The position numbers were made by a program, and so were the translations under genes. From Lytechinus pictus (Eukaryota): DNA of 60,000 bases. How positions within the stretch are numbered: position 1 is the first letter of the stretch; each line of letters begins with the position of its first letter. The notes under the pieces were generated by a model, which did not search any database, was not told where the DNA came from, and worked only from the letters and a program-made list of their open reading frames with translations. This document shows positions 1 to 43,600 of the stretch, one piece after another. The DNA is taken from NCBI RefSeq assembly GCF_037042905.1, contig NC_087251.1, positions 3,846,001 through 3,906,000 of the forward strand. Reading direction: 5' to 3'.

Positions 1-190
1 TTGGTCAGCTCCGCGGTACCATGCATGCATTTTTTAACTACTACTATTACAGCCATACCATATACCATTTACTTCTTTGATTTGCGACATTTGCTCAGCG
101 GAACGTTGTTATACTACCTCTTCATCAATACTTTGTGCAGAAATTCATTATTTTGCTACTTTTGGCTTGACTTTTACTCCCTTCACCACC

Positions 191-974
191 ATGTCAACGC
201 GTACTACACGTGCTAGTACTAGCGCCTCGGACAAGGTCGCTCAACCCGAGCCAACGCCCAACAGTATCGCCGAACTGAAGGCCGACATAAAAACGCTATC
301 CGAGGTGTTATGTCAGAAGATAGATGAGTTACGCAACGACACTGCAACCATGCACCGCAAAATATCTGACCTAGAAACCGCTATGACGGCTACGAGTGAA
401 CGGACTTGCCATCTAGAGACCGTCCAACTTCCAAAACTACGTGAGGACCACAAAGCCGACATGTCAGCCATAGAGAAGAAACTGATTCTCCTCGAGCTCT
501 ACCAGAGAAAGGCTAATCTCCTTTTCTATGGGGTCCCCCATAACAGAGATGAAAACGTCTATGAGAAGCTCCGCAACGTCTTCGTTAATCTTGGTCTATC
601 AGTGGAGGATGCAAATGCCATATCCATTGCAAATGCACATCGGTTACCCCGCAAGTCGCAAGCTGGAGCAGCCGCCCCTCCCCCTGGTCCTGAGCCTATC
701 ATAGCGAAATTCGTTATTTTTAGTGATCGTCAGCGTATCCTAGAAGCCTACGAGCATCAGCAACGCGTACCTCATAGCGATGCAAATAATATTAGCAGAA
801 TCTCGGTGAGAACCGATCTTCCACCAATCATGAAAGCTCGCAGAGCTAAGCTCGCTACGGTAGCATATGAGAAAGCAGAAAAATCTATCAACCAAGATAT
901 TTGTCAAGGATACCAATGTTATTCTTCAATTCAAGACCAAGGGCACCAGTGAATGGAAGACCTACCATGACTAA
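191..974 (+). pseudogene. LINE ORF1 (coiled-coil + RRM, L1-ORF1/transposase_22-like), frameshifted near 865
   Basis: ATG at 191 in CACCATG context; heptad coiled coil; motifs RKANLLFYGV, AHRL, PIIAKF, SVRTDLP. The natural-looking C-terminus MRKQKNLSTKIFVKDTNVILQFKTKGTSEWKTYHD* (TAA 972-974) is in another frame. Confidence 0.8.
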
Positions 975-1593
975 CATCCCTGTCCTGAAAATAAAAGGTA
1001 TAACATAATGATGTACTATAGTAAAGTTTCATGATCTAATTGATTTCAACATTTCATAATACTATACTCCAAGATGATGTCTTACTACTAAACTCCTTTA
1101 CCTATAAATTATGGTATCATAAATAAATAAATAACGGTATAATGAGGAAAAACTGACAACTTTTATTTGTAGTTGAGAGATGAATAAAACTGCAGCCTTT
1201 TCAGTTCAAATGTTAGAAGAGAACGGAACAACACTAGAATAGGTCTTCAAATTGTTATTTAGTTTTTTACTTGACCTATTGCCATAAATAATGTAATGAG
1301 CTAAACTTACAATGATATGGATATCTTATTCATAGATTAAAGACTGCAGTTTCTTCACATCCAGTGTCTTTTTACTGCATGATAACTCTAAATATTATAT
1401 TATAGATCTTGAAGCAATTTTATGTAACCTGGCAATTGAATTACGAATTACTTGTCATTTTTTCTTAACTTACACTTGATATTTTTAATATCATGTCTTT
1501 ATTGAGAGTATTGCCTCCATATTTAATGTCTCTGCTGGAGAACGAGAATACATTAAAAAGGTTTGACAACCTTTTTATACTCTATATATCTAT

Positions 1594-1814
1594 AACAGAG
1601 TATGGGGTGTTCTGGAGAGGTGGAGTGAAGCAGGTTTTCTTCAAATCATCATATCTCTAGGGGGGAAATGAAATTTAGATCTACAAGATAATAAATCCTA
1701 AACTTTTCCATGATTTTTTAAGATTTTCCCCAAATCTTAGGGGTCCCCATTTTCCCCCAGTTTCTCAAGAAAACCTGTTTCACTTTGTTTTCCCGGATCA
1801 CTTTATGCTCTGTT
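1594..1814 (+). ncRNA. Structured RNA domain, copy 1 (48-bp G-U-rich stem plus inner stems)
   Basis: 1594-1641 pairs gaplessly with 1814-1767: 34 Watson-Crick, 12 G-U, 2 mismatches. Inner stem 1657-1670/1748-1760; hairpin TAAGATTT-tcccc-AAATCTTA near 1719-1739. Confidence 0.7.
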
Positions 1815-2308
1815 TTACTTGATCTACTAGCCATAAACAGATAAAATAACGGTATAATGAGAAAAAACTGACAACTTTTATTTGTAGTTGAGAGATGAAT
1901 AAAACTGCAGCCTTTTCAGTTCAAATGTTAGAAGAGAACGGAACAACACTAGAATAGGTCTTCAAATTGTTATTTAGTTTTTTACTTGACCTATTGCCAT
2001 AAATAATGTAATGAGCTAAACTTACAATGATATGGATATCTTATTCATAGATTAAAGACTGCAGTTTCTTCACATCCAGTGTCTTTTTACTGCATGATAA
2101 CTCTAAATATTATATTATAGATCTTGAAGCAATTTTATGTAACCTGGCAATTGAATTACGAATTACTTGTCATTTTTTCTCAACTTACACTTGATATTTT
2201 TAATATCATGTCTTTATTGAGAGTATTGCCTCCATATTTAATGTCTCTGCTGGAGAACGAGAATACATTAAAAAGGTTTGACAACCTTTTTATACTCTAT
2301 ATATCTAT

Positions 2309-2529
2309 AACAGAGTATGGGGTGTTCTGGAGAGGTGGAGTGAAGCAGGTTTTCTTCAAATCATCATATCTCTAGGGGGGAAATGAAATTTAGATCTACA
2401 AGATAATAAATCCTAAACTTTTCCATGATTTTTTAAGATTTTCCCCAAATCTTAGGGGTCCCCATTTTCCCCCAGTTTCTCAAGAAAACCTGTTTCACTT
2501 TGTTTTCCCGGATCACTTTATGCTCTGTT
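2309..2529 (+). ncRNA. Structured RNA domain, copy 2
   Basis: Same sequence as 1594-1814 shifted by 715 bp. Confidence 0.7.
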
Positions 2530-3607
2530 TTACTTGATCTACTAGCCATAAACAGATAAAATAACGGTATAATGAGGAAAAACTGACAACTTTTATTTGT
2601 AGTTGAGAGATGAATAAAACTGCAGCCTTTTCAGTTTAAATGTTTGAGAGGACGGAACAGCACTAGAATAGGTCTTCAAATTGTTATTCATTTATTTTTT
2701 TTTATTTTGTTATTGCATGACAGCTCAAAATATTATATTATAGATCTTGGAGCAATTTTATGTAATCTGGCAATTGAATTGCTTGTCATTTTTATTGTCA
2801 TTTTATTATATTATAGATCTTGGACCTCTCTCATTCAATTGATTCATGATTTAAAAAAAAGGCCTATACATTTTTATTAATATATTCAAGCGAAATCAAA
2901 CAGCAGTCTTTTAAAGTTCAAATGTATCCGAGAGAACATAATGATATTAAAAAAGGTCTAGAACTTAGTTGTATTATACGACATATTAACCTTAAAAAAA
3001 AATGTTGGCCTAAGGAAAAAAAAAAATGTCTTGATTTCTAGCCATAAAGTATGGTACCATGTCAAAAGGAATACGGTGTATTCATTATACGTATAGATTC
3101 AAGAAGAAACAAACTACTGTTTGTTGTTGTTTTTTGTTTTCCATTTTATATGTCTTTGCGTAAAGAACACGACTTAGCATTATAGTAAATGACTTTAAAA
3201 ATAAATAAATGAATACGTAATGTCTACTTTGTACGTGATCTTTCTAGTTATAAATCGTACTTTATCTTGTAATGGACATGTTTGCTAGGATATCCGAATT
3301 TTGTAGATGCTCAAGAGACATGAAATAATGTCATTTTGCCGCATATAGTTACCGTTGCCTGGCATTGTCCCTTCCATTCGCTGAGATGTCTATGCATAAC
3401 ATTTGACAAAATCATTCACAGGTTTTCTTAAATGTCTTGATGAAGATGTCTACTGCAGCTGTTAACACCCACATATTTTCTATTTGTGTCCAAGATATTC
3501 ATGAGCATTCCGCATGTCTTTGTACTGTATCAATTATTTTCGATCATAAGCTATTCAATCCTTTTCCATACATCATGTACATACATGTAGTATGTTGATG
3601 GGATGGC

Positions 3608-4202
3608 TTAAAGGGGAGTGAGACCTTTGGAATAGGTAGGCTTGTGTCGTGGCAGAGGGGTCGGGGAGGCGGATCGGCGGGGGTTTGGGAGGGGTCGGAC
3701 GGGCGGTGGGAGGGTTGTGGGCGTTTGAGTGTTGCGATCGCTGGTGCTGCGGGGGTCCTCGCATTGGCGATGTGGCGGGGATGTGTGGTGCCATATGTGA
3801 ACGGCTTTCCCTTTGATGGACTGTGGGGTGCCCCCGCGGGATGTCTCTTTTTGCTTTTTCTTGTGGTGATGTGGGCTCTTTGTCCATGATGTGTCCTTTG
3901 AGGGTCTGCATTGCATGCCCTCCTGTGGAGAAAATGCGTGGTCAACAGGTGGATGTGATGGGGGAGGCAATTTGGGTGAAATGTGTACTAATGTAATGGG
4001 GAGAGTTGTTCGCAGGTGGCATCGCGCATCTTTGTCGCGTTGCCCGTGTGGGGATCTCCGTGGCATTGGTGATCGCGGTATTCGGGTGCTCGTGGCTTTC
4101 TCATTGTTTGTCTGATTCTTCTCGGGCTTTCGTTGGTCTTTTTCTTTGATTTTTCTGTTTTCGCGCAAGCTATCTTGTTCTAAGGGTTACATTCTCCTTT
4201 AA
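3608..4202 (+). ncRNA. Giant G-U-rich RNA hairpin (205-bp gapless stem, 185-nt structured loop)
   Basis: Position i pairs with 7810-i for i=3608..3812: about 112 Watson-Crick, 85 G-U, 8 mismatches, no A-C, no gaps (hand count). Confidence 0.85.
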
Positions 4203-5013
4203 AGTGACAGGTGATGTGTGGAGTTCACATTCATATCTATGCTATTTACATGTACGGTAATTCATGTTTCTGGATTTTGAGTTCTTTTTGTATTACTTAT
4301 TTCTTTCCTGGGGTCTGGAGGCAAGATTATGCACAATGCCTGGCGATTACAAACTACAATTATACTTGGAATCTTATCGGTAAACATTAATTACTCCTCT
4401 ATCTTGCAGGCCTATATAGCGGGCTTCCAGGCTCCAGAAATGAATGGGTATGCGTATCATTTACAGATGAAAAAATCTAAAATCTAGTAACTTGAACTCA
4501 TGCATTGATACTTATTTACTTCACAATACTGGTGTATATTCCACTCAAGTTTATATTTTTGTGTTGTTTTGTTTTGACAATTCCCTTAAATAATATTAGT
4601 TCCTATGATAACCATTGATTTTCTACAAATGAACGACACTGTCGTAACTCCCATGCTGTAAAACTTTCCACCAATTATCTTTTCTCAAAATTTGGAACTT
4701 AGCGGTAGCTGGACCACCCCTCATCAGTATATTGATTCAACCAATATCATGCGTTCCATTGTCATTTTTGGATTACGCGTTTCAGCCATTTTTTGTATTT
4801 TAGGCTATGGGTATTTCCCTTTGAACACCTTCTATTCAGTTACAATCTCCATTTTATATACAGATCAAACCAATCTTAACAACACATGTACTAGTTTGCT
4901 TTTCATAGTTTTTCATGTACTATTATTATTCACATCTGCCGTGCGCCTTGGAATTCCTTCGGTATATTTTACCCGCCCTGCTCTCACGCAATTTGTGTTA
5001 ACACATACATTTT

Positions 5014-8000
5014 ATGACGAGTGGCCTTAATACATTTCATTCTGCGCCTGAACTAGCAACTATTGTTCAGAGAACTGCCGGATCCTTGCCATCAAATTCT
5101 TCGCTGTCTAATTCTGAATCTTTTCAGAACCTTCAGTCAACTGAAGCATATCCTAACCCCCAAACTACTGAACTTAGTCTCGATTTCGAATCAACAACCG
5201 TAGAGGGTAACAACCCTTACTCTGACTACTTTTCTGAGCAAATGTTTTTCTCCAATTTAAATACACACAATGATAAAAATATAATACTTTTACAATATAA
5301 CATTCGGAGTCTCAATAGAAACTTCGACCAATTAGAAGCATTTGCTAAACAACTAAAATATCAGTGGTCAGTGATCGGCATTGCAGAAACATGGCTCAAA
5401 CACACTCCCTCCTCGCTTTATAATATAGAAGGATTTACCTTTGTCTCTAATAATAGAACTGAGAAACGAGGTGGCGGTGTGGGAATGTATATTCCCGACG
5501 GGTTTGATTTTACAATAAACGACGAACTAACCATTATATCAAATACTATAGAAACTATCTTTGTCGAATTACACTCTCCTCATAAAAAGAATATAATCAT
5601 AGGTGAAATCTATAGACCCCCAAATACAAATCCTAAAGATTTTATTGAAACATTACAGTCATTATTATCAGCACAAATACTGAATAATCAAACATGCATT
5701 ATTATGGGAGACTTTAACTTTGACTTACTCCGATGTGACCAAAACACTGATAGTCATGACTTTCTTAACTTAATGCTATCTAAACATTTCTTTCCAGCGA
5801 TTACCAAATCAACCAGGATAACCGATACATCAGCTACATTGATTGACAATATTTTTGTTGGAGGAACTTCAATTTTCAAGTCAGGAATTATAGTTAGTGA
5901 TATCTCAGACCACTTCCCCATCTTTACATTGATACCTAATACTATTCTTAATCCAAAGCCTAAAACAAAAAACAATATAGGATCACGTGATCTGTCACTA
6001 TACAACATCAACCGCTTAAAAAATGAACTCGATACAGTTGATTGGACTGCAATCTATCACTGCACTGATACTAACATCGCATTCGAACAATTCATAGAAA
6101 TAATTATGCATCACTTTAACTCTTGTATCCCAATTCGAAAAAAACATTCAAATTATAAAAAACGCCCAAGGCGTCCATGGATATCCAAGGCTTTATTAAA
6201 GTGCATCAATAAAAAAAACAATCTATTTTATAAATATAAAAACAATCTATTTTATAAATATAAAAACAACCCTACTTCTTTGAATAAATCCAAGTATTCT
6301 TCTTACCGTAATATATTAACATCTTCGTTAAGGCTTGCTAAGAAGAACTTTTATTCGAAAGAATTCATTAAACACAAGGACGACATTAAAAGTACATGGA
6401 ATACAATAAACGATATTCTGAAAAGGAAAAAGATATCCAACCAAATACCAAAAATCTGCATAAATAACAATGACATTCTAAATCCCCTCGAAATTGTTGA
6501 GGAATTTAATAACTATTTCGTTAACATTGGCCCTAATCTTGCCCATAACATTCCCTCAACTGACATAGACTTTAAATACTTTTTAAAATCCCCGAATCCA
6601 AATTCTTTATTCTTTACCCCAATCTTAGAACATGAAGTTATCGACATTGTTAATAATCTAAAACAAAATAAAAGCCCAGGATATGATGGTATAACAAATC
6701 GTGTATTAAAAGAGATCATACCATACATTATTGCACCCCTGACACATATCTTGAATCTATCCATTACAAATGGTATCGTTCCACAGAAAATGAAAATCGC
6801 CAAAGTCATACCAATACTAAAGAAAGGTGCCTCTGATCATCTTGGTAATTATCGTCCTATTTCTCTTTTGACCTCCCTCTCTAAAATTCTCGAAAAACTA
6901 GTATATTCACGTACAATGAAATTTTTAATATATCATAATATCTTATCTAATAATCAATTTGGCTTCAGACAGAAACACTCCACAACTCATGCATTACTTG
7001 TTTTCTTAGATAAGATAGCCCATGCCATAGATAACATGTCTCACACTGTTGGAATTTTCCTTGACTTCTCCAAGGCCTTTGATACTATCAATCATAATAT
7101 TTTACTGCATAAATTATCCCATTATGGGATTCGAGGAAAGGCCTTGGAGTGGTTTGGAAATTATCTTTCCGACAGAAAACAATTCGTTAGTATTAATGGA
7201 CAGGACTCTTACCCGAGATTAGTATCATGTGGTGTTCCACAAGGTTCCTTATTAGGCCCCCTATTGTTTATTTTGTATATTAATGATTTTCAACATTCAT
7301 CTGATAATTTGTCGTTTATTCTTTTTGCAGACGATTCTAATATTTTTTTCTCCCACCGTAACCCCACCAGCCTCCTTGAAATCCTGAACGAGGAATTGAA
7401 AATGGTCCAAGCCTGGATTAATGCAAATAAGCTATCTTTAAATGTTAACAAAACTCATTATATGTTGTTCAGTAATACTATCAAATCTTTACCCGGTGAT
7501 ATATTGATTGCTAACACAAATTTAACTAAAGTCGATTCCACAAAATTTCTTGGAATTTATATCGATAGCAAACTATCGTGGGAATCACATATTAATTATC
7601 TTTGTACATTAACGGCTAGAAACACAGGCATTTTAAACAAACTTAAACATGATCTACCCCAAAAAATTTTATTATCTCTTTACAATACTTTGATTTTGCC
7701 CTATCTCAATTACGGTATTCTTGCTTGGGGTAATAGCAATAAAACTCAACTACATAGGTTGTTTGTCATTCAAAAACGTGCGGTTAGAAACATAAACAAT
7801 GCTGGTTTTCTTTCCCATACAAGTCGTTACTTTCATGGAAATCAACTTCTCAAAATCTCAGACTTATATAGATATAATTTAGGAATTTTTATGTTCCAGC
7901 TATCCACAAATGAATTACCAGCCATTGTCACCTTATTATTTGTTAAACGAAATGTAATTCATTCATACGCAACTCGACAAAGTACATTTTATCATTTACC

Positions 8001-8169
8001 ACTGACTCGAACAACCTTTGCTCAGAAAACAATTACTTTCTCAGGACCGAAGTACTGGAATGGACTATCCAAAGACATTTCAGACTCCAATTCATTGTTT
8101 ATATTCAAACGTAAACTTAAACATACTTTTTTGAATGATTATGCAGTTCAGGCAGCAGTAGATATCTAA
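5014..8169 (+). CDS. LINE ORF2: apurinic endonuclease + reverse transcriptase, 1051 aa, intact
   Basis: APE motifs YNIRSL, IAETW, IYRPP, MGDFN, TLIDNIF, SDHFP; RT motifs NYRPISLL, QFGFR, FLDFSKAFDT, GVPQGSLLGP, LFADD. Confidence 0.97.
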   Translation: MTSGLNTFHSAPELATIVQRTAGSLPSNSSLSNSESFQNLQSTEAYPNPQTTELSLDFESTTVEGNNPYSDYFSEQMFFSNLNTHNDKNIILLQYNIRSLNRNFDQLEAFAKQLKYQWSVIGIAETWLKHTPSSLYNIEGFTFVSNNRTEKRGGGVGMYIPDGFDFTINDELTIISNTIETIFVELHSPHKKNIIIGEIYRPPNTNPKDFIETLQSLLSAQILNNQTCIIMGDFNFDLLRCDQNTDSHDFLNLMLSKHFFPAITKSTRITDTSATLIDNIFVGGTSIFKSGIIVSDISDHFPIFTLIPNTILNPKPKTKNNIGSRDLSLYNINRLKNELDTVDWTAIYHCTDTNIAFEQFIEIIMHHFNSCIPIRKKHSNYKKRPRRPWISKALLKCINKKNNLFYKYKNNLFYKYKNNPTSLNKSKYSSYRNILTSSLRLAKKNFYSKEFIKHKDDIKSTWNTINDILKRKKISNQIPKICINNNDILNPLEIVEEFNNYFVNIGPNLAHNIPSTDIDFKYFLKSPNPNSLFFTPILEHEVIDIVNNLKQNKSPGYDGITNRVLKEIIPYIIAPLTHILNLSITNGIVPQKMKIAKVIPILKKGASDHLGNYRPISLLTSLSKILEKLVYSRTMKFLIYHNILSNNQFGFRQKHSTTHALLVFLDKIAHAIDNMSHTVGIFLDFSKAFDTINHNILLHKLSHYGIRGKALEWFGNYLSDRKQFVSINGQDSYPRLVSCGVPQGSLLGPLLFILYINDFQHSSDNLSFILFADDSNIFFSHRNPTSLLEILNEELKMVQAWINANKLSLNVNKTHYMLFSNTIKSLPGDILIANTNLTKVDSTKFLGIYIDSKLSWESHINYLCTLTARNTGILNKLKHDLPQKILLSLYNTLILPYLNYGILAWGNSNKTQLHRLFVIQKRAVRNINNAGFLSHTSRYFHGNQLLKISDLYRYNLGIFMFQLSTNELPAIVTLLFVKRNVIHSYATRQSTFYHLPLTRTTFAQKTITFSGPKYWNGLSKDISDSNSLFIFKRKLKHTFLNDYAVQAAVDI

Positions 8170-8338
8170 ACCTTTCAGCAGCTCCATTTTACCTTCATAC
8201 CTCCCTTTAAAACATTACTTTCTTTCCAGGGCGTGCCACAGATGTGATTAAACCAATTGGTACATAAACTTTTGCTTTTCTTTTACCTTGTTATTTTTAA
8301 TAGCTATATAGCCTTATGTCTTATCACCTCCTTCCATT

Positions 8339-8379
8339 GGGGCCTATAACTCACAAGCTCTGCTTTCAACTTAGGCCCC
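8339..8379 (+). other. LINE 3' UTR stem-loop (putative RT recognition element)
   Basis: GGGGCCTA (8339-8346) pairs with TAGGCCCC (8372-8379) and encloses AAGC-tct-GCTT. Confidence 0.55.
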
Positions 8380-8961
8380 TCCATTTTTCACTGATTTAAA
8401 TTCTTATTGCGTATAACTTCTGTCTCAATAACGATTTATTTCAACTCAATATAATTATGTTATACTCATGTCAAGCATGTTAATGTCTGTATATGAATAA
8501 TGGAAATAAACTAAACTGAAACTGAAAACTGAAACTGAAGTCAGTTGTAGAAAGCCTGTCACATAAATGGGAGATCATCGGTTAGATAACCACCAGAGTC
8601 ACACCAAAGACTACCATGGGTAAATAAGAGTTTCATGGTTAATCAACGGTGGTATAATAAGCCAAACATTTTGAAAGCACCAGGGCAAAAATATCTTATT
8701 TTTTGGTTATGGTCATGATTTATTTTATTTTATTTTATTTATCTTCATTTATTTTTTTAAATTTTTTTTGGAGGGGTCATCAATATCATCATCATCATCA
8801 TCACCATCATTATTATTACTGCTGTTATCATAATCATCATCATTCTCAATATTATTACAACCTTGAGAAACTTTTGTATAGTATATTGCATATAACAGCA
8901 AGAAAGTTGGACTCATATAAACACTCTGTTGAAAAAAATAAATGTGGTGAATTTTACTTAC

Positions 8962-28600: not shown

Positions 28601-31600
28601 CTGTTGATACCTACCTTGGCAGTTATATCCATCTCCTGTATAACCTGGAGCACATTCACAGTAGAAGGCTGTATCTCCTCGAGGACGGCAATAAGCATAA
28701 GGGCTACAGTTGTTGTTGTCACATGGATTACCGCTTTGTTCTAATGATTTAAGAATAAAATTAATGGAAGTAATATCCCTTACTTTTAAATTATATGAGG
28801 ACTATACAATATTTTGTAAAGCTCTTGTCTCTTTACAAGCGATTACTACGTTTATAATGACCAAAATATATCATGTAGGGAATAGGTTACAGTGGAAGAC
28901 AGTATCATTGTTCATTTCTACAAGTCCATCATCCATCATCCAGAGTGTTCTGATAGTTTATTTTGCCAATGCAGCAAAATGCGACTTTAATAAAGAAACT
29001 TAATCAACCCAGAAAAATTGTAGAACGCTTATTAGGATTAGACTTACCTTCCCTTGATGACCTCTACCTATAGAGAGAATCGTTGCTAAACTAAAACAGA
29101 TTATGCAGGACCCCACCCACCCACTCTACGATAATTTTACTTTCAACTGTTCAGGCATTCGTCTATGTACACCATGCACACTAAAAACCTGTTTGAGACA
29201 ATAATTTGTCCCCAATGCTATTCATCACTTTAACGCTCAAGTCCGAAGGTCTGTGTCTCGCCCGTAATTAATTAGTACCCTACACTTTTAATTGTTTGTT
29301 AATAATCACAATAGATAACTTTGGCATTTCGTATATATTAACTACAGATACTCGGCGGGTCGCACAGCCGAGCACATGTATCCCCCGAACTCACCGTGTC
29401 ATCCGTCATTGCGATATATAGAGCTCACACAGAAATTTGACAAATAAATACAATCATCATGGCGACAATGACCCTGCCCACATTTTGCCTGTGGGTACCA
29501 AATTTGATGACAATAATATGACATAGCAGCGTGACTCTGCAGAACCTTTGGGCCGGGCGCAGAGTAGATCGCACCGGCATGGCAAGCTGGCCTGTGACTG
29601 CCTGCTGGAGGATTGACAGTCGATTTGATTTCCGTCTCTGTTGAAGAGACTCTGTTTTCAGTGTCTTCTTCATCAGTTACACTACTCTTTCTTTCATACT
29701 TTCCGGTGATAAAAAAAAATGCTCTATTCCGAATTTGTTCAAATATATTTACTAGTGTTTGAGTATGTGGATCCCACACTGATGAACAATAGTCAAGTAT
29801 TGGTATAACCATTGTCTTGTACGACATGTGATGGACACGAATGCAAGTTTCTTCTCAGGAAACCAAGTACTCTGTTTGCCTTGGAGCATACTCTGTCTAC
29901 ATGAGAATTTCATGAGAGATCATTACTTATATCTACACCTAGGTACTTATAGGCTTTGGTTTCTTCTAGTAGTGTTATTCAGGGTGTAATTGTACTTCAG
30001 AGGGCTTCTAGCATGTGAAAGTTGCATGACTTAGCACTTTTTAGCATTAAAATCCATCTGCCACTTGTTTTGCTAAGTTGTTAATTTATCAAGATCTCTT
30101 TGCAACTTCTCAGAATATTTTGGGCAGGTTACTGTAGTGTATAATATACAATTGTCTGCAAACAAACAACATCAAGATTCTAATCCTTCAGGGAGGGTGT
30201 TGATATGAAGTAGAAAGTCTTATCAGGCCTGACACTGTCCCTGTGGCATGATAGAATCTACATTGACCCATTCAGAATGTTCATCCCCTACCACTACACA
30301 TTGTTTACGTTTGGTGAGAAACACTTCAATCCATTTGTGAAATTTACAATCAATTTGTCAGTTTTACAAATTCATTTGTAAATAATTATTTTATCTCATT
30401 GTGATACAGGGCCCAGACCACAGCATTGAAATACAAATAGAGAATAATGGTACCTCTTTCACAGTTCCTGCCATCTCCTATGAATCCTGGAGCACATTGA
30501 CAATAGAAACCCTCACCGTCAGGGTAGCAGTAGGCATAAAGAGAACAGTCATTGGTATCACAAGGATCACTTCCTTCATCTATTATACAAAGAAAATATT
30601 AGAAATAACTTCTTATTAGGTGGTTTCAGACCGCCTCGAAGTTCGTCAGTTCCAGGTATTCTCTAATCGGGAAATTTACCTCGATCAGAAAATACTAGGT
30701 ATTTTGGTAATGTGAAAGCAAACTATGCGTAATTTCCCCAAAAGAAAATACCCGCTAAATAGTAGGTACTTGGCGAAATTACGAGAACTTTCGCGGGGAT
30801 TTTTCCAAGGTCGCAGGTATTTTGGCAATGTGAAAGCAATTTACTGGAACTTTTAGCCCAGCGTGTCGTTGGGTGCGGGCGCCGTGGGTGGCTGCTGGGC
30901 TAGTGATTTTGAATCTCGCGCCTTGCCTGCTTATACAGACCATACTGCGCATGCTCGTAACTTCAGGAACTTATTCCGAAGAGTATGCTTTGGGGCGGTG
31001 TGAATGCAGAAATAATTAATGGGTATTTTTTAGCCTAATAAAGTTCTCGTAATTTAACGGGGATTCTTATGATCGAGGCGGTTTGAAACCACCTATAGAG
31101 AATATTTCATTCAGCAGTAAGAATTCACAGCACAGTCAATTGGTATTTTGTATTTTGCAAGTCAACAGTACATGTGTGGGTACACAGAATTGTATTTCAT
31201 GCAAATGGTTGTTGGGTGGTCTTTCACAGAGATTTTAAGAGATACATTTTAATAGATATCATAACTTAATGCACAATAGCATGTTGTTAACACCTTGATC
31301 AGACCATACCCTGAGGATGCATGCTACATCATATTTATCAACAAGATTGCCTGTATATATCATGTTCCCATTCAACTTTAAGTCACACTAACTCATTGTA
31401 AAAAAAAGACCCTGGAGAGTATTTCATCAACATGTTTCATCCAACGAGCTGTCTGATCAGATGGCTAAGAAGCAGTTACTATGGTAACTGTCGGATAAAA
31501 CTGGACTTGTCGAATAAAATATCCAACAAGTCTGTTTATAAAACGTTCCTCAGATGTGCTACTTGCAATAGGAAGTATAAAATTATTGTAGGTAAAATTG

Positions 31601-34600: not shown

Positions 34601-37600
34601 AGATGACCTAGCTGTTTTGTACAGATATCGAATATGAAGCACAAAATGATTTCTGTCAATGACAACCTAATACTTCCTTTGCAAAATAAATATTAATCTC
34701 TTTCCTTAGCTCTGCCTCAGCATGGGAAAAAGAGCTATGTCTGAATCACCAAGGAAGAGTGCCTATAAAGTTTACCAAACAGCTTGCTATAATACAAAGT
34801 GCCCCCTTCCCCCATCCCCATTAAAAAAAAAACATACTTCACTAATCAAAGTCTTTGACACGTTGCTCCATGCCAGTAATATAAGATAGAACTATTTGTA
34901 TTTAACGTAAGAAAACATAGCAATGTGGATGAAGAAGCATAGTAGTTATTATAGTTTTAGTTACCAATATCAGGTCCTACACTGGTGACCATGGCATAAC
35001 GAAGGATTTCTCCCTGGGGCTCAAATATGGAATAAGCATAGGTGGTATTCATTCTCATAGCAGTAAGTGAGGCATCAGTGTTGATATCATCAGCTTCACA
35101 TTCCTCGTAGGTGATGGTCTGTTCAATAGTAAAACTAATGGTCCGCTCTTCAGCAGTATTAGCATTGACAAGAAGTTCACGCTCCTCAGACGAATGAACA
35201 TATCCTGAAAACAAAAATATGTATGAATTTATTGTTCTTTTAATATTGAGATGGTTGTTACACTAAATTTATAATAGACAATTATGCATTCAACCAAATG
35301 GTAAGAAATGCTAGTTGTAGACTAGTAAAGTAGACTGTAAACTAGGATTAGATAATTTTGGATGAGACTAAATGGAAAGTAGACAAAGTAGATACAGACT
35401 GAGTGGCAATAAACCAACCAAGCTACCCAACTTGGGCCTATCCTCTTCCTTGTACTCGTCAATGATGCTGCTATAAGTACAAGGTATCGATGGAAGTATG
35501 TAGACGACTTAAGCATTGTGGAGGTTTTACCAAAGAACCAGCAAAGCTCCATGCAGGACCATGTTAATTTGCTGAGTCAATGGTGCATCTCAAATAACGT
35601 TACGCCTAAACCCGAAAAGTGCAAAGTCATGCAAATGTCCTTCCTGAAGGTCCCTCCACCCCAGCTAGACATCACAATCAAGGATTGTCACTTGGAACGT
35701 GCCAACTCGTTAACCCTTCTTGGTGTGATGATTCGTTCGGATCTCAAGTGGGATGATCAAGTCCAACACATGATTTCACGCTCTTCAAGAAGACTGTATA
35801 TCCTCTGCATTCTAAAGAAATTTGGTGTTGATAAGCATGATCTCGTAAATATCTACAACGTGTACATTCGTCCACTGTTGGAGTTTGGTGTTCCGGTTTG
35901 GGGATCTGCAATCACTAAAACACAAAGTGACGAAATTGAAAGACTTCAAAAACGAGCTCTTCGTATGATTTTGTATCCGTCATCTCTTTCATACTCTCAA
36001 CAACTCACTCTTTTTGGCCTCCCTTCATTATGTGAACGCAGAAAGGATCTCATCTTGAGTTTTGGACTTGGTCTTCTCAAATCTCACCGCCATCGAGACA
36101 TGTTACCCCCCACACGTCAATCCGTTTCGCGACACAGTTCGGCCCTGCGTAATGCGCATCTTCTGGACTTACCGCGATGCAGAACTCAGAGATATAAGAA
36201 CTCAACTATCCCTCATGTCACAGCATTATTGAATGCTGCTCTGTGATATGTGCCTCTGTATATGCCATTGAAGTCAATGTCAACCCTTGTTCATGTTCGT
36301 ATATAATTTGTGTGTAAAAGTATGACATTGTTTTCTTCCCTTGACCCTTCACCTCCTTTTTCATAACTTACAAAAGTTTCCCCCCCCCCCCTCAGTTTAC
36401 ATTGAAATCAATCAACATAATACATATCCCAATATTTTTGTGTGTTTTTATCGGTCATTCTATAGCATTATCCCCTTAATTATATTTCTGTAATGTGTAG
36501 AACCTCGAGTGCAATATTTAATCTTACTATTATGTTCTTATCATATTTTGTTAATTCGTAGGTATATAATTTAATGTATTTTTCCTTTTTCTGTTAACTT
36601 TGTATGTGTCAGTCTTAGGACTGTTTTACAATGTCTTTCATAATAAACCGAATTGAATTGAATTGAAATTTTGTAAGGTAAATAGTTGAAATATGAGACT
36701 TACCTGGTCGATACTTGGTATAAACCTCTGAGTGAGGGATTACATTGACAGATGTACCAGGTGGAAGGTAGGGTACATCACCATTGATATTAACATAGCC
36801 AGATATAACCCCTTCTGCCTCACTGTCATCTACACCAGTATACCTCTGTGTGATGCTAACCTCTTCACCACTACCAAATCGTATGTTGGCAGAGTAGAGA
36901 AGGACTCCACCTAAATGATTAAGACAAGATATTATAAAGATAATCAATGTGGACTAAACTGACGTTGAAACTTTATAACCAAAATTATATTATACAAAAA
37001 CATTATTTTTGGTGTACAAACAAGAAAATGATATCTTTGGTAAATGGAGACAACAAAATAGTAATAGTTGAGATTCAGATGTGGCACCCTTTATACAGTG
37101 GCGTAACAGGCGGGGGGGCAAGGTGCCCCCCCTGGCGGATTTCACCGGAAAATTACAAAAACGGGAAAAAGAAAAAAAAGGAGGGAAAAAGAAAGGGAAA
37201 GGGGGGAAGGAAAGGAGGAAAAGGAATGGGAAAGGGAAAAGTGAAAAAGAAAATGAAGATTTTTTTAATGGAAAAGGAAAAAAAAGCGGGAAAAGGTACG
37301 AAAGAAGAACAAATCATTCCGAAATAGGCTTATGTAATGCAATAGCATGATGGGAAATAAATTAAAATATGACAAAATGGCAAACAATAGCGAGAAACGA
37401 AGGTAGAATAGTATTAGTCCAAAGCTAAATTAGAGAATAAAGAAAAGGGACAAGAAAAAAAATAATGACACTCTTCCGAATAAATTCTTGAAGCTTTATT
37501 AAGAATACAACCTGTTTCCTGTCGGCATATTGTTAATTGCATCTCAGGAAGTACTTATGGGTGAAATAGATTTACAAGCAAAACAGAAAGCTTCCAGGGA

Positions 37601-40600
37601 AGATCATACTTCAAAATAGACAAAATTTCCTTCTTGGACCTCTTTCAAAAGAAACACTATAAAACAATCTGAGATACCTACGATTATCTAATGTGAAATA
37701 TATATTAGAAAAGGCAATTGTGATTAATGTAAACTTAAGTTTTAATGCAAAGTATAGTGGAATGTCAAACAAAGTCATTGCCCATCATGTCACTATCACT
37801 TTCCCCACTGCATCGTTCACATATGTTTCCACATTAATACACTGTTTTCTGTTCTTTTGGTATGTTCAGTGTAAGTGTATGTCTGAGCTACAGTAACTTG
37901 GAGGCACAAAACCAACTGTCAATTACAGAAAAAAATGTTGCTGGACTGTCAAGACCTTGTATCTCAAAATTTAAAAAATATTAGATAGCTCAGGAAAAGC
38001 TGGACTTCAGATCGAGTTATAACATTAAAAATATTTGTTTACATAGGAAAAAGTTCTCTACATGAATTTGGACTCTTTACAGAAAATATCAGATAGCCAA
38101 CACTACCATATTTCTACAAAACAGCTTTTTGATATTGAGCCACCTAAATTCTTTTGAATTCTGAGATTCAAGATTTTAACAATTCAGCAAAACAACAAAA
38201 TTAAGTTTGATTTTCTCATATATTTTCCAAGATACATACCTGTCTGCATGAAGCCATTGATTCCCTTTGTAGCTGGTTCAGCAAACATCCATCCCATAAG
38301 CTCACCAATAGGTAATAGAAGCTGCAGGCTATAAGACAGTGATGATGGTACAGGACTGATTGCTGTAAAGGTACGTCCACCTCCTCCCATGATGAAGGTA
38401 TGTATGTAGACATCATCAGGTATGGTTACTCCATTGACGGTCCCGTTAACGTTCCCATTCATACGTCCATTGTTATCTAAAATAGCAATGGTGCCATTTG
38501 ATCAAACAGTGTCATTGACTCAAATATGAGCAGTAGACATGTAATCCTAAAAAGACCATGTTGTATGTCTTGAAAAATTGAGCCACAAGCTTCCCGTGAG
38601 AATGAATGTTGGTGGTGTATGTTTATGAAAGGCATGAATTGTAAAAATCAGCTCATTATGGACTGAGTTAAATAATGAGATGTTCCTTTACAATTGATTC
38701 AGTGTACATGTAGTTCGGATTAAATCATCTTCCCTGGGAATTATCTCCAATCTCAAACAGTTTTTTGCTTGGAAACCACCCTTCTCATGAATCACTGATA
38801 TTTAAGGAGACTACCCTGATTAATAAACCACAATCTAATCCCACCAAAATATCAAGGGCACATCTTACGGTCAACTTTGTAATACATCACATACGTTTTA
38901 AATAGCTTAGCTTTTGCCACTTCACCTGTAGGCCTCAAAATCCATTGTGGATGATACTGGTTCAGATAAGCATATGAAATAACAAAGTGACTAAAAAATA
39001 AAAAAAGAGCCCCATCATTTGTGCATTTTGTACCCATTATTGTCAATAAATATTATAAACTACATGAATATGTACTTTTTAAATGTTACATCGATCACCA
39101 CAGGATCAATTTGATTCATATAAAAAAGAGTCATATTACATGTAAATGAACTCAATCATGCAAATTTCATCAAAAATTGATGACAGATAACAAAATTAAC
39201 AGCTTTTAAAGGTTTGCACTGTTTAAAAATCAGTGAACAAGGATGTGCCAAAAACAAGTAGGGTGATGTCACAAGCCCAAGACATATTTTACTATATCAT
39301 CATGAAATACGAATATTTCTATTTTGAATATTTTGGTGGATTTAGCTGCTTTTGGAATAAAACAAAGAAAATCACCGTCCGTAGAAAAGATGAAAATATA
39401 TCTTTTTTTTTCTTTTTAAAATTTTCAATGGATAAACATCAGAAATTATGTAAAGTCTCCAGTGTTAAACATGTTTAAATTGGCAAAAATGGGCATTCAA
39501 CTAAGGTTTTATTCCAAAAGGAGCTTAATCCATGAAAAATAAAAAATAAATAAAAATCTGAAAAATTGATATTGAATGCTAGATTTTAAAAACATGATTT
39601 AATTAATCTAAGATGATAGCACTATAAATTATATCAAAGTAAAACAGCAGTGGATAAGGGAAAGTGGTGAATTAAAAAACCTTGATTTACAGAAAAACTC
39701 CAAAAGTGGATTTAGCTCCTTTTGAAATAAAGCTCTTCAACCCTGCATATCACTTTCTAAAGAAATACAAAATAAAAAAGCAAATCTGATGCTAATGAAA
39801 TTTTTACTGTTTGCTGGTTTGATTTTATACATGTTTATTCCAATCAACTTGATCTGTGAGTGAATACCAAACAAACTGGTTGTACTTACCATTAGATAGA
39901 CAATGTATACCATTACCAATGAAGCCTTCATTACATGCACAGCAGTATCCAGTGGGGTAAGGAACACATCGTCCATTTTGACTACAGCTACCTTCTCTAC
40001 ACTGGTTCTCAAAGTTCAAAACAACATCAAGTGCTGAAAAATATCAGAAGAAAGAAACTTAAAGAAGTGCTCTACTGCATCATTAAACGTTAAAATATGC
40101 CTTTTCCTTATTAAAACAACAAACAGCAATGTAGATCAATAAGCTAAAAGTCAAACAATTGCAAGAATTGATGGTTTATTTTGTTTTTTATTTAATAGAT
40201 TTCTGTTAAGAACCTCATTTATCGCTAAATCAAATTTCTTCTAAGGAATTTGCTCAATTTCGGGAGACCCTCCTTCTGGGCCCTCCTTATTGAATTGTAG
40301 GCATAGACACTGTATAATATGAATTGAAAAGTTTACATCAAACATTTATTTCTTTATTATTGTTAGCTTTATTTAATCACTGTGGTCTCTTCAGTAATAC
40401 AAACTGCTATCATTGAGGGCACTGAAATATAACCCCCCCCCCCAAAAAAATGAAGCAAAAAAAAAAATACTGCTAAATCAAACCTCTATTATCTTTATTG
40501 CCACACATTTCTTGATTTTTGATCATTTTGACATTTTGGAGATGATTGCTTTGGAGGCTCCCAATAAGTCAAAATAGCAAATGCAATATTCTTACTTTGC

Positions 40601-43600
40601 ACTGATATCAAATTAAAATAACATTATGTAGTTGAGGTCAGAAGTTTACATACACCCAGGAAATTCAAAGAAAAGTTGACACTTGCCAAAAAACATAAAG
40701 TTTTCTGCATCTTATAAAATATTTGTGCTATCATGACAAATTTGATATCAAACAAATGAGCATGTCATGCCCCTTCATCACATGGCTTTGTCATCAGGAG
40801 CTGAAAAATATTAAGGTGTAATTTTCCCTCAAAATCTTCATATTTTAGACAAATTAAAAATAAAAACTTGACAAAAACATTTCATATTTAGGCTAGTTAC
40901 TTCTCAACACAAACATTTCAGATTACACTTCTTTGTTCAGTGGTGACATAATTTTGACATTTATATATTTCTATAATAACAAACAATAGAATACACTTAG
41001 CATGAATATTACTTTTTTTCTTCGAAGAAAATTCCACCTGAAATATACTTTAATCCCAACGGCATCCCAATTATGTGAAAGAGCTCAATACGCTCTTTTA
41101 TTTGATACCAATAGTCATTGTAGTATTTATTTTTCTGAAGATATAGTAAATTTTATGATGTTTGGCAAGCGAACAAATTTCACTGAATTCCATGGGTGTA
41201 TGTAAACTTTTGTACCAGTATATAAGTTTATTTTAATTTAAATATATAATTATATATAATATCACTTTGCACTGATATAAATTAAAATAACATTACCTGT
41301 ATATAGCATAATATTGAGATAAAAGAATTCAATGATAAAAACATGTAACATATCTAATTATCACAACATCTAATGGAATTTTCCAATTCAACATTACATA
41401 TGACAAAGGAAAGAGGCCTTGATGACTTTAATACTGATAATGGTTATCTATGAATCACAATTTACAAAAGACCCTCACTGCTTTATTGCCTCATTTTCCA
41501 ACATGGCACATACTGAGTGCCTCACTTGGCAAGATTTCAGAAATGTAAAATCAAATTTAAACTTAAATGAATGGAAATCAGTATTAACACAAACCATCAC
41601 ATTATGAGTAATATCATCACAAGATCATGACTTCTTTAGATGTCCCCTTCTTATTTAAACCATCTCAACATAAAATATATTTCTATAGTCTATGATACAA
41701 AGTGAGCATAAAGACACAGCATTCAAGGGAAACTGGGAAAAACATGCTTGATTTAAATCTAAGTTCTAAATGTATGAAAAAATATTGTGTTCGAACTAAT
41801 GATGTGAACAGTTACTTCTATAATTTATCCTAGGAGTACATGTTTATGATACTTATTATAAACACAAGTATACACAAAAAACATTTTAATAATTCAATAA
41901 TAATTCATTTGATTTATCTACATTTGACTAAGTAATTCATCATTACCAGTGGCAGTTGGAGGATATTATTTGTTTGAAAGAAAAATGTGAATTCACCATT
42001 GTCCAGTTGGACATCAACTGTTTCTGGAGGGGGCTGATCATTCTGAGGAAGTTCTTCCAAAGGGACATAGGTCACAGCAGGGATGATGTTACCATCCATA
42101 CGTCCATCAATCTTATATGCCCAGACACCATTCAATCCAACATTGGAATCCCTAAAAGGTTATATGAGAATAAAAATGTTCCAAGGGAAAATTAATTTGA
42201 ATCAAGAATCATTTTTGTTGTAAACATCTAAAAAGTGATCTGTTTGCTAAAAGATTAAGTCCATTAAATAGGTCGCAGTCTTCATATTATTCAAATTAGG
42301 AAACATTTTCTTCTTAACACCCTGTACTTTAAACTGGAACTGGCAATAAAACTAAATAAAATATATTTTCCAATTTATCTGACATATCCATGGAGATGTT
42401 ACTAACTGTATAACATCTGAAATTTGATTTACAACACCAGATCAGTGTAAAGTACCACCGACATGGCAGGATATCTAAATATAATTAAATTAATAAGCTG
42501 TCTAATTGAACGGTGATGACTGGGTTGACTAGGTCAAGTGTAATTTAAAAAGGAACTTGTTATCAAGAGACCATTATAAATGGACAGATTTAGCAAAAGG
42601 AAATAACAGTTATTCATGTAATCTATCAAAAATCTATAATGAAATTAATTCTTTTGGAAATTACCTGACATTATTCATTCTAGTATAATAACTAGATCAT
42701 CATATTTATTACTAGTATGAGATTTTCCCACGCTTTAGGGGGAAACAATGTTAAAAACAACTTTATGAAATCTGTCAGACCTGTAAATAAAATGTTCAAT
42801 TTATGAATAAAGTAGAGGATATAGAAACCTCAAATCTAGGTGGGAGTTACAACTTTGTTTTGGGAAACAGACGAGACAATACTCATGTTTCCTGCTAAAA
42901 CAATTCAGGCAAATGCACAACAGGAAATCAAACCAAAATCTTTGACTGTATCATAGTCTGTCTTGTCTTTTCTGTTCCTATGTGAATTACATATCACCCT
43001 TAACATAATGTCTTCTTGAAACTAAAACATCATGTATCCTAGGCCATGGAAACAAGAAGTTGGTTGACAATATTGATAAATATGTTTTCAATGAAATATT
43101 GAAAAAATTGTCAATTTTCTCATGATGTATGCAGCTTCAAATAAACAAAACTTTAAAATGTTAGTCAGTTAGAACTTTCTTGAAGTTTACACCCAAAATC
43201 ACTGAAATGTTCAGTGGTATGCTTTTTTTTTCTTAATTTAATCAAATCCACTTTTTGTTTGGGTGGATTCGTTCTTAAGAAGAAATAATTTGAAATGTAT
43301 TTAGCCTCCTCAAAATTTTGTGTTGATGTTTATGCCTAACTCCAGTTATTCAGCATTATGGACAAGCTAATTCTTACCTGAGCGGTTCATAACTGTACCC
43401 ACTGATGCTAAAAATACCCTCTTGATTTAGTTTGACTTGTAGCTCTTCAGATTTACCTCCCATTTTTCTTTCAACACCATACCAAAATGACCCTTGTGTA
43501 CCCATGTCAATCACCGGTCATATCCATATCCCCCTTTCCTTCATTCTTAACAATTGTTTTAAAGACTCAAATACCTTGATATGTAATCTTGATATATTGG

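What the first reader, a model, noticed from the sequence alone, without database searches (positions are those of the whole stretch)
1594..2529. Second G-U-rich structured domain (about 220 nt), duplicated in tandem in the same spacer
Seen: a 48-bp gapless stem (1594-1641/1767-1814) with 34 Watson-Crick, 12 G-U, one U-U and one A-C pair, closing inner stems (1657-1670/1748-1760 and TAAGATTT-tcccc-AAATCTTA). It is repeated at 2309-2529 by the 715-bp duplication. The 12:1 G-U to A-C bias is on the same strand as the giant hairpin, which independently supports RNA-level structure. Inference: a modular RNA domain whose copy number can change.
Basis: partly seen in the sequence, partly recalled or inferred. 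Interest (0 to 1): 0.7.

Follow-up and report, generated by a model that had tools for sequence, protein, structure and literature searches.

The report
RNA-editing scar inside a retrotransposon
A real hairpin in a sea-urchin-type jumping gene is rich in G-U pairs, most likely because the host's RNA-editing enzyme changed its A letters and the element copied those edits back into DNA, which would make it a heritable record of RNA editing more than a new RNA machine.

Summary
The 48-bp stem is exact (34 Watson-Crick, 12 G-U, 1 U-U, 1 A-C) and far beyond chance. It lies in the 4-kb spacer between ORF1 and ORF2 of a sea-urchin-type LINE. The neighbouring 205-bp hairpin (3608-4202; 85 G-U, 0 A-C) is a captured high-copy MITE with TTAA ends. 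Other copies read A where the window has G (G>A at 65-108 places, A>G at 2-19), and the sites avoid a 5' G (p=0.003): the ADAR signature, written into DNA by reverse transcription. The 220-nt domain looks like a weaker case of the same thing: same strand, G runs in mid-stem, 0 of 12 sites with a 5' G (p=0.27), and its one polarisable site reads A in a relative. Its interior is not structured beyond chance (z -0.4), Rfam has no match, and no target-site duplication or high-copy family was found. The two copies are identical, so they give no covariation. Best reading: an inverted repeat scarred by ADAR over rounds of retrotransposition, then duplicated once. A selected RNA function is not excluded.

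The parts
1594..1641 (+). 5' arm of the 48-bp inverted repeat, copy 1; holds 9 of the 12 G's of G-U pairs (1604-1606, 1617, 1619, 1620, 1622, 1623, 1630)
1767..1814 (+). 3' arm, copy 1; holds 3 G's of G-U pairs (1787, 1795, 1807)
1660..1758 (+). inner 11-bp inverted repeat 1660-1670/1748-1758, pair probability about 0.99, one G-U at 1665; the enclosed interior is not structured beyond chance
2309..2529 (+). copy 2 of the domain, identical to copy 1; a relative in run X7 reads A at 2380 (the G-U site equal to 1665)
1129..2558 (+). 715-bp tandem duplication (1129-1843 / 1844-2558), 2 differences
2559..2800 (+). older, partial third copy of the unit's start (94% over 140 nt, 84% over 94 nt) without the hairpin; likely homology for the duplication
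   Evidence: mechanism inferred
3608..4202 (+). giant hairpin: captured T2/Kolobok-like MITE with TTAA at both ends, 205-bp gapless arms (112 WC, 85 G-U, 0 A-C), A-to-G hypermutated on the LINE sense strand
191..952 (+). LINE ORF1, L1-type (coiled coil, RRM, CTD); departs from relatives after about 870, as from a frameshift; named relatives are from sea urchins
5002..8169 (+). LINE ORF2, APE endonuclease and reverse transcriptase, open for 1055 codons
8505..8539 (+). AATAAA and short AAACTG-type tandem tail: 3' end of the LINE

Best explanation
The domain is an inverted-repeat insert, possibly a small DNA-transposon relic, in the spacer of a LINE. In the LINE's sense transcript the arms pair (inferred from folding). 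Host ADAR deaminates A to I in the duplex (inferred). The LINE's reverse transcriptase reads I as G, so new genomic copies carry A-to-G changes that appear as G-U pairs (direction shown for the neighbouring hairpin, and at one site for this domain). Repeated cycles act as a ratchet: A-U pairs become G-U, and A-C mismatches, a preferred ADAR target, are turned into G-C. This gives a one-strand G-U bias with no need for a functional fold. The scarred domain was then copied once by a 715-bp duplication, probably through the older repeat at 1129/2559 (inferred).
For: Neighbouring hairpin: other copies read A where the window has G at 107, 108, 65 and 79 places (runs X21, X22, X1, X7), against 14, 17, 9 and 14 places for window T / other C (whole 3121-base stretch). 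5'-G depletion 13/85 vs 17/42, p=0.003, the ADAR motif (PMC5625713 passages). A contig of X7 spanning the spacer/MITE junction keeps most G's; its 3 listed G>A rows inside the stem are all G-U sites, which points to more than one round. Domain: same strand; 0 of 12 G-U G's have a 5' G vs 4 of 20 remaining A's; 1 of 11 candidate sites near the stem ends changed vs 11 of 21 in the middle, p=0.023, tested after seeing the data; stem G+C under an A-to-G origin is 14/46, matching the spacer's 0.32, but 26/46 under a C-to-U origin, p=0.0007; the one G-U site seen in a relative (2380) reads A; the surviving A-C has a 5' G. Sea urchins hyper-edit repeats (PMC5625713, PMC9989829 passages). Precedent in avian retroviruses (PMC12925331 passage).
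Against: Only 1 G-U site of the domain could be polarised, and none of the 12 in the outer stem. The domain's own 5'-G test is not significant (p=0.27). No free, unedited family was found: depth 16-36 in X7, zero in X1, X21 and X22; no target-site duplication. Some G-U pairs of the giant hairpin come from C-to-T: other copies read C at 3794 and 3684, and 27 of 85 U's lie in TpG. Selection on pairing may act as well. 233 variant rows were not shown. No inosine was seen directly, and no RNA read covered the domain.
Confidence: 0.62

Rival explanations
1. Selected RNA element: the LINE keeps the stem for a function (ORF2 translation across a 4-kb spacer, packaging, or RNA stability), and G-U pairs pile up because they are the tolerated changes; ADAR may supply the mutations but selection keeps them.
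For: 48 gapless pairs with only 2 non-pairing positions. A relative of the domain's interior persists in a second organism. The captured MITE is kept at the same spacer site in two organisms (X7 record 9).
Against: Interior at chance. No Rfam match. Selection alone predicts C-to-U as well as A-to-G, but the neighbouring hairpin is strongly A-to-G. The relative carries indels at 2354, 2363 and 2375. The older third unit lacks the hairpin.
Confidence: 0.22
2. Ordinary decayed inverted repeat (old MITE or template-switch inversion) with DNA-level decay; the 12:1 bias is chance.
For: Small counts. A GG[AG][AG]AAA motif occurs at 4 sites in 221 nt against 0.23 expected, as in subterminal repeats of DNA transposons (motif chosen after looking).
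Against: 12:1 gives p=0.003 alone and p=0.035 against the window's other inverted repeats, which decay symmetrically, 19:14. G-U share of pairs 12/48 vs 19/312, p=0.0002. Same strand as the 85:0 hairpin.
Confidence: 0.08
3. The tandem second copy is an assembly artefact (two alleles joined through the 1129/2559 repeat). This concerns the duplication only and can hold together with the best explanation.
For: The unit boundary falls in a near-identical repeat, and the units differ at only 2 of 715 positions. No laid run covered the junction.
Against: Homology-driven duplication (unequal exchange or a reverse-transcriptase jump) gives the same boundary. ORF2 also holds a perfect 24-bp tandem duplication. 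Neighbouring sequence 2715-4108 matches a contig of X1 with 0 differences.
Confidence: 0.15

Closest known systems
ADAR hypermutation of avian retroviruses (Rous-associated virus U3; avian leukosis virus inverted repeat), PMC12925331, passage read
   Same: A-to-G changes in an inverted repeat of a reverse-transcribing element; nearly 50% of A's there, 12 of 32 candidate sites here and 85 of 127 in the giant hairpin (assumes each G-U G was A).
   Different: Here a germline non-LTR element, with the changes fixed in an animal genome and largely shared with a second organism, so built up over evolutionary time.
Hyper-edited palindromic DNA repeats, e.g. Xenopus Harbinger (PMC5625713, passages read)
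   Same: A self-pairing DNA-transposon RNA as an ADAR substrate; G depleted upstream.
   Different: There the edits stay in RNA; here they appear in DNA because the repeat rides in a LINE.
T2-MITE / Kolobok non-autonomous elements (PMC6004289, passages read)
   Same: The giant hairpin has TTAA on both sides, AGGRR termini, long terminal inverted repeats and high copy number.
   Different: The 220-nt domain lacks these ends, has no found target-site duplication and is low-copy.
L2/CR1-group LINEs with Type II (L1-like) ORF1 (PMC4120745, passages read)
   Same: L1-type ORF1, APE-RT ORF2, short tandem 3' tail.
   Different: 4-kb spacer between the ORFs holding two G-U-biased inverted repeats; clade not assigned.
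APOBEC DNA editing of retroelements (PMC2873906, passages read)
   Same: A deaminase signature fixed in genomic retroelement copies.
   Different: That is G-to-A on the sense strand; this is A-to-G and confined to duplexes.

Membership tests
ADAR hyper-editing scar | Clustered A-to-G on the transcribed strand, inside a duplex | tested here: met
   Giant hairpin: G>A at 65-108 places vs A>G at 2-19 in 4 of 4 runs; G/(G+A) 0.6-0.86 in the hairpin vs mostly 0.2-0.4 elsewhere in the spacer.
ADAR hyper-editing scar | Same polarity shown for the 220-nt domain | tested here: inconclusive
   1 of 1 visible G-U site reads A in a relative; G+C argument favours A-to-G; the 12 outer-stem sites were not polarised.
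ADAR hyper-editing scar | Depletion of G 5' of edited sites | tested here: inconclusive
   Met for the giant hairpin (13/85 vs 17/42, p=0.003); same direction but p=0.27 for the domain (0/12 vs 4/20).
ADAR hyper-editing scar | Inosine in the element's own RNA, ADAR-dependent | not testable with these tools
   No RNA read covered the domain in X21 or X22, about 6% of each run read.
MITE (220-nt domain) | Terminal inverted repeats, no coding capacity | tested here: met
   48-bp arms; 221 nt long, no ORF of 150 aa overlaps it.
MITE (220-nt domain) | Target-site duplication | tested here: not met
   Flanks read by eye: no matching 2-9 bp direct repeat.
MITE (220-nt domain) | Dispersed, high copy number | tested here: not met
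   At 80% likeness: depth 16-36 in X7, zero in X1, X21, X22, against up to 335,088 in X7 for the giant hairpin; no other copy in the window. Older, more diverged copies would be missed.
T2/Kolobok-like MITE (giant hairpin) | TTAA target site and AGGRR termini | tested here: met
   TTAA at 3608-3611 and 4199-4202, AGGGG and AGGAG inward; definition from PMC6004289.
T2/Kolobok-like MITE (giant hairpin) | Dispersed copies with sharp ends | tested here: met
   Loose ends at 3608 and 4202/4203 with flank agreement 0.34-0.45.
T2/Kolobok-like MITE (giant hairpin) | Autonomous Kolobok partner with matching ends | not tested
   No genome held.
L2/CR1-group LINE | APE + RT ORF2, Type II ORF1, tandem 3' tail | tested here: met
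   Pfam RVT_1 E 3e-40 and Exo_endo_phos; ORF1 profile hits LINE-1 ORF1p at E 1e-5; tail 8508-8539.
L2/CR1-group LINE | Clade by RT phylogeny (Crack, Daphne, Kiri, L2) | not tested
   No named reference set among the hits; the L2/CR1 grouping rests on architecture and recalled knowledge.
Known structured RNA (IRES, ribozyme, other Rfam family) | Covariance-model match | tested here: not met
   0 matches at gathering scores in 60 kb; 0 matches to E=5 in 950-5050.
Conserved functional RNA domain | Covariation among diverged copies | not testable with these tools
   The two copies are identical; no full-length relative could be fetched.

The most novel reading that the evidence does not exclude
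A sea-urchin LINE lineage has turned host ADAR into a directed mutator. Duplexes in its spacer are edited, written back to DNA, and then kept because pre-edited, A-poor G-U stems escape further hyper-editing and dsRNA or small-RNA surveillance. The ratchet, shared across two organisms, would build long G-U-rich RNA helices with covariation-like changes out of captured DNA transposons, and the 220-nt domain would be an earlier or lighter product of it.
Probability: 0.25. Interest if true: 0.85.

Novelty: new variant of a known kind. Interest (0 to 1): 0.62.

Why it matters
If right, RNA editing here is a heritable, directional source of germline mutation for a non-LTR retrotransposon, and the genome stores a datable record of past ADAR activity and site preference in an invertebrate. 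Free MITE copies are the unedited control, so the claim is easy to test. It also warns comparative RNA work: strand-biased G-U pairs, missing A-C mismatches and A-U to G-C changes, normally read as selection on structure, can arise from editing plus reverse transcription alone. The 220-nt domain is the weaker of the two examples in this element.

Tried and rejected
No whole genome is held, so family copies could not be counted. Rfam: nothing. Two-arm pattern in JGI metagenomes: 0 hits. MITE-end pattern there: 8 hits, all matching over only 21-27 bases and taken as chance, so that collection seems to lack this host and the blank says little. Single-arm pattern in viral contigs: 7 hits of at most 32 bases, taken as chance. 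ORF2 alignment: 1 fragment in viral contigs and 19 loci in GTDB contigs at 23-48% identity; none of the 19 matched the spacer or the ORF1 profile, and their G-U-rich hits recur in sliding registers like simple repeats (judged from the pattern, not inspected base by base). Three-letter search of the window: only self-matches and low-complexity noise. No RNA holder listed. Earlier findings: none in 3 look-ups. A covariance model was not built because the two copies are identical. A long-range duplex 4926-4953/8224-8251 scores at chance level (17.5 vs 19 on the opposite strand). Folding both copies together favours cross-copy pairing, 0.76 vs 0.11; not relied on for a 1.6-kb RNA. Searches for a prior report of ADAR edits fixed in a LINE or in a LINE-borne MITE and of such spacers listed none by title or abstract start; subscription journals and Repbase reports are not covered.

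Full report
OBSERVATION. The stem is as described. 1594-1641 pairs without gaps with 1767-1814 (20 A-U, 14 G-C, 12 G-U, 1 U-U, 1 A-C), and the same stem recurs at 2309-2529. Its gapless-stem score is 36, against a maximum of 15 in 500 shuffles. The 231-nt region folds at z -6.4 on the + strand and -4.25 on the - strand. The 12:1 bias has p=0.003. Six other inverted repeats in the window, outside the LINE, decay symmetrically (G-U:A-C pooled 19:14), and the domain differs from them (p=0.035; G-U share 12/48 vs 19/312, p=0.0002). The inner parts are weaker than claimed. An 11-bp stem 1660-1670/1748-1758 is firm (P about 0.99), the TAAGATTT hairpin has P about 0.45, and the interior 1642-1766 folds no better than shuffles on either strand (z -0.43, -0.85). 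Rfam has no match.

CONTEXT. Bases 1-8539 are a LINE. ORF1 (191-952) is L1-like (profile hit to LINE-1 ORF1p, E 1e-5). The 2 named hits among its 32 relatives are from sea urchins (Lytechinus pictus 52%, Diadema setosum 40%), and it departs from them after about 870, as from a frameshift. ORF2 (5002-8169) encodes APE and RT, and a short AAACTG-type tail ends the element. The domain lies in the 4-kb spacer between the ORFs. The 715-bp units differ at 2 positions, none in the domain; an older partial third copy (94% and 84%) follows and lacks the hairpin. The duplication therefore postdates the G-U pattern and probably arose through that older repeat (inference). It gives no covariation. No laid run covered the junction, so an assembly artefact is not excluded.

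THE NEIGHBOUR SHOWS THE MECHANISM. The giant hairpin (3608-3812/3998-4202) has 112 WC, 85 G-U and 0 A-C pairs in 205. I laid 4 of the 23 listed runs on 2180-5300. The hairpin is a dispersed high-copy element: depth in DNA contigs of run X7 reaches 335,088 against 0-130 in bins wholly outside it, with sharp ends at 3608 and 4202/4203 and mixed flanks. It has TTAA on both sides and AGGRR termini, the marks of T2/Kolobok MITEs (PMC6004289, passages). Other copies read A where the window has G at 107, 108, 65 and 79 places (X21, X22, X1, X7). The reverse change is seen at 19, 19, 2 and 12 places, and window T / other C at 14, 17, 9 and 14. A 30-letter loose-end consensus before 3714 differs from the window at 17 positions: 13 G vs A, 3 C vs T, 1 A vs G (compared by eye). 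G's of G-U pairs have a 5' G in 13 of 85 cases against 17 of 42 for the A's that remain (p=0.003). Upstream-G depletion is the shared ADAR motif, and sea urchins hyper-edit repeats (PMC5625713 and PMC9989829, passages). Pairing selection alone would accept C-to-U as readily as A-to-G, so the direction argues for editing.

First, contigs of X1 match the window with 0 differences over 2715-4108, 4088-4170 and 4159-5300, so the G-rich sequence is not a base-calling error (X1 may be related to the source sample). Second, raw RNA reads on the G-richest bin (3650-3754) are strand-biased 48:1 and 27:1, and reach 0.33-0.42 of the depth of bin 4070-4174, against 0.026 and 0.0003 in contigs. About 90% of these reads run on into unlike sequence. 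I infer that transcripts of free copies are being edited towards the window's sequence; contigs drop rare variants and X7 is another organism, so this is suggestive only. Third, an X7 contig spans the spacer/MITE junction (3441-3740; 26 other letters, 19 listed). It differs by G>A at only 3 listed stem sites, all G-U sites, among 43 such G's in 3608-3740. So the insertion and most changes are shared by two organisms, and a few came later. Against a pure-editing origin: other copies read C at 3794 and 3684, 27 of 85 U's lie in TpG, CpG decay in free copies could account for some rows, and 233 rows were not shown.

THE DOMAIN ITSELF. It is on the same strand of the same transcript. Its G's come in runs in mid-stem: 1 of 11 candidate sites within 8 bp of an end changed, against 11 of 21 in the middle (p=0.023, tested after seeing the data). 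Editing rises with depth in a helix, and A-C mismatches are preferred targets (PMC3091650, passages). None of the 12 has a 5' G, against 4 of 20 remaining A's (p=0.27), and the one surviving A-C has a 5' G. If the G's were A, the stem's G+C is 14/46, like the spacer (0.32); if the U's were C it is 26/46 (p=0.0007). One or two low-depth X7 contigs (depth 16-20 each) cover part of the interior. The one G>A row shown, 2380, is the G-U site of the inner stem, and A restores a Watson-Crick pair. None of the 12 outer-stem sites was polarised. The domain is not a high-copy family at 80% likeness (zero depth in X1, X21, X22), and no target-site duplication is visible. A short G/A-rich motif at 4 sites, 0.23 expected (chosen after looking), hints at a DNA-transposon origin, which stays unproven.

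MECHANISM. Shown: the stem, its strand bias, its place in a LINE spacer, and A-to-G direction with ADAR context in the neighbouring hairpin. Inferred: the duplex forms in the LINE transcript; ADAR makes inosines; the LINE's RT fixes them as G; cycles accumulate them and erase A-C mismatches; the domain was then duplicated once. Confidence 0.62. Rivals are a selected RNA element (0.22, and selection may act on top of editing), chance decay (0.08) and, for the duplication only, an assembly artefact (0.15).

COMPARISON AND NOVELTY. It works like ADAR hypermutation of avian retroviruses, where nearly half the A's of an inverted repeat became G (PMC12925331, passage), but in a germline non-LTR element and over evolutionary time. 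It differs from APOBEC editing of retroelements in direction (PMC2873906, passages). Paper searches (on fixed editing; 18, 49 on spacers) listed no report of this in LINEs; I saw listings and abstract starts only, apart from the passages named, and read no supplements. The library lacks most subscription journals and Repbase reports. The domain fails two MITE criteria and is not filed as a MITE or as a known RNA family. Rating: new variant of a known kind, interest 0.62. The giant hairpin is the stronger example, and this domain is a probable second one.

Noticed in passing
window 3608-4202: High-copy T2/Kolobok-like MITE captured in the LINE spacer and A-to-G hypermutated on the sense strand (85 G-U, 0 A-C); present at the same spacer site in a second organism. 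The strongest part of the story.
   Followed up: yes
window 3650-3754: Raw RNA reads laid here are strand-biased 48:1 and 27:1 and far deeper relative to contigs, suggesting free MITE transcripts are hyper-edited now.
   Followed up: partly
window 4926-4953 and 8224-8251: 28-nt complementarity between the region just before ORF2 and the 3' UTR (22 WC, 3 G-U); best duplex for that stretch in the window (-37.9 vs -35.9) but at chance level by stem score. 4795-4964 is well kept in X7 (9 differences in 170).
   Followed up: partly
window 6214-6261: Perfect 24-bp in-frame tandem duplication in ORF2.
   Followed up: no
window 1554-1577 and 2269-2292: Small near-perfect hairpin just upstream of each domain copy.
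   Followed up: no
window 2715-8540: Run X1 holds 0.66 of the element's sampled words, close to the share of this stretch (0.68), and has no depth at 2180-2704; could be a shorter copy, a shorter transcript or filtering.
   Followed up: no
window 55864-56062, 40639-41212, 37938-38190: Other inverted-repeat elements with symmetric G-U/A-C decay, used as controls.
   Followed up: partly
window 35419-36186 (+) and 29820-30354 (-): Old, diverged LINE RT fragments at 25-31% identity to ORF2.
   Followed up: no
L017-L032: Contigs filed under bacterial and archaeal metagenome-assembled genomes carry LINE-like APE-RT frames, some beside apparent simple repeats: likely host DNA contamination.
   Followed up: no
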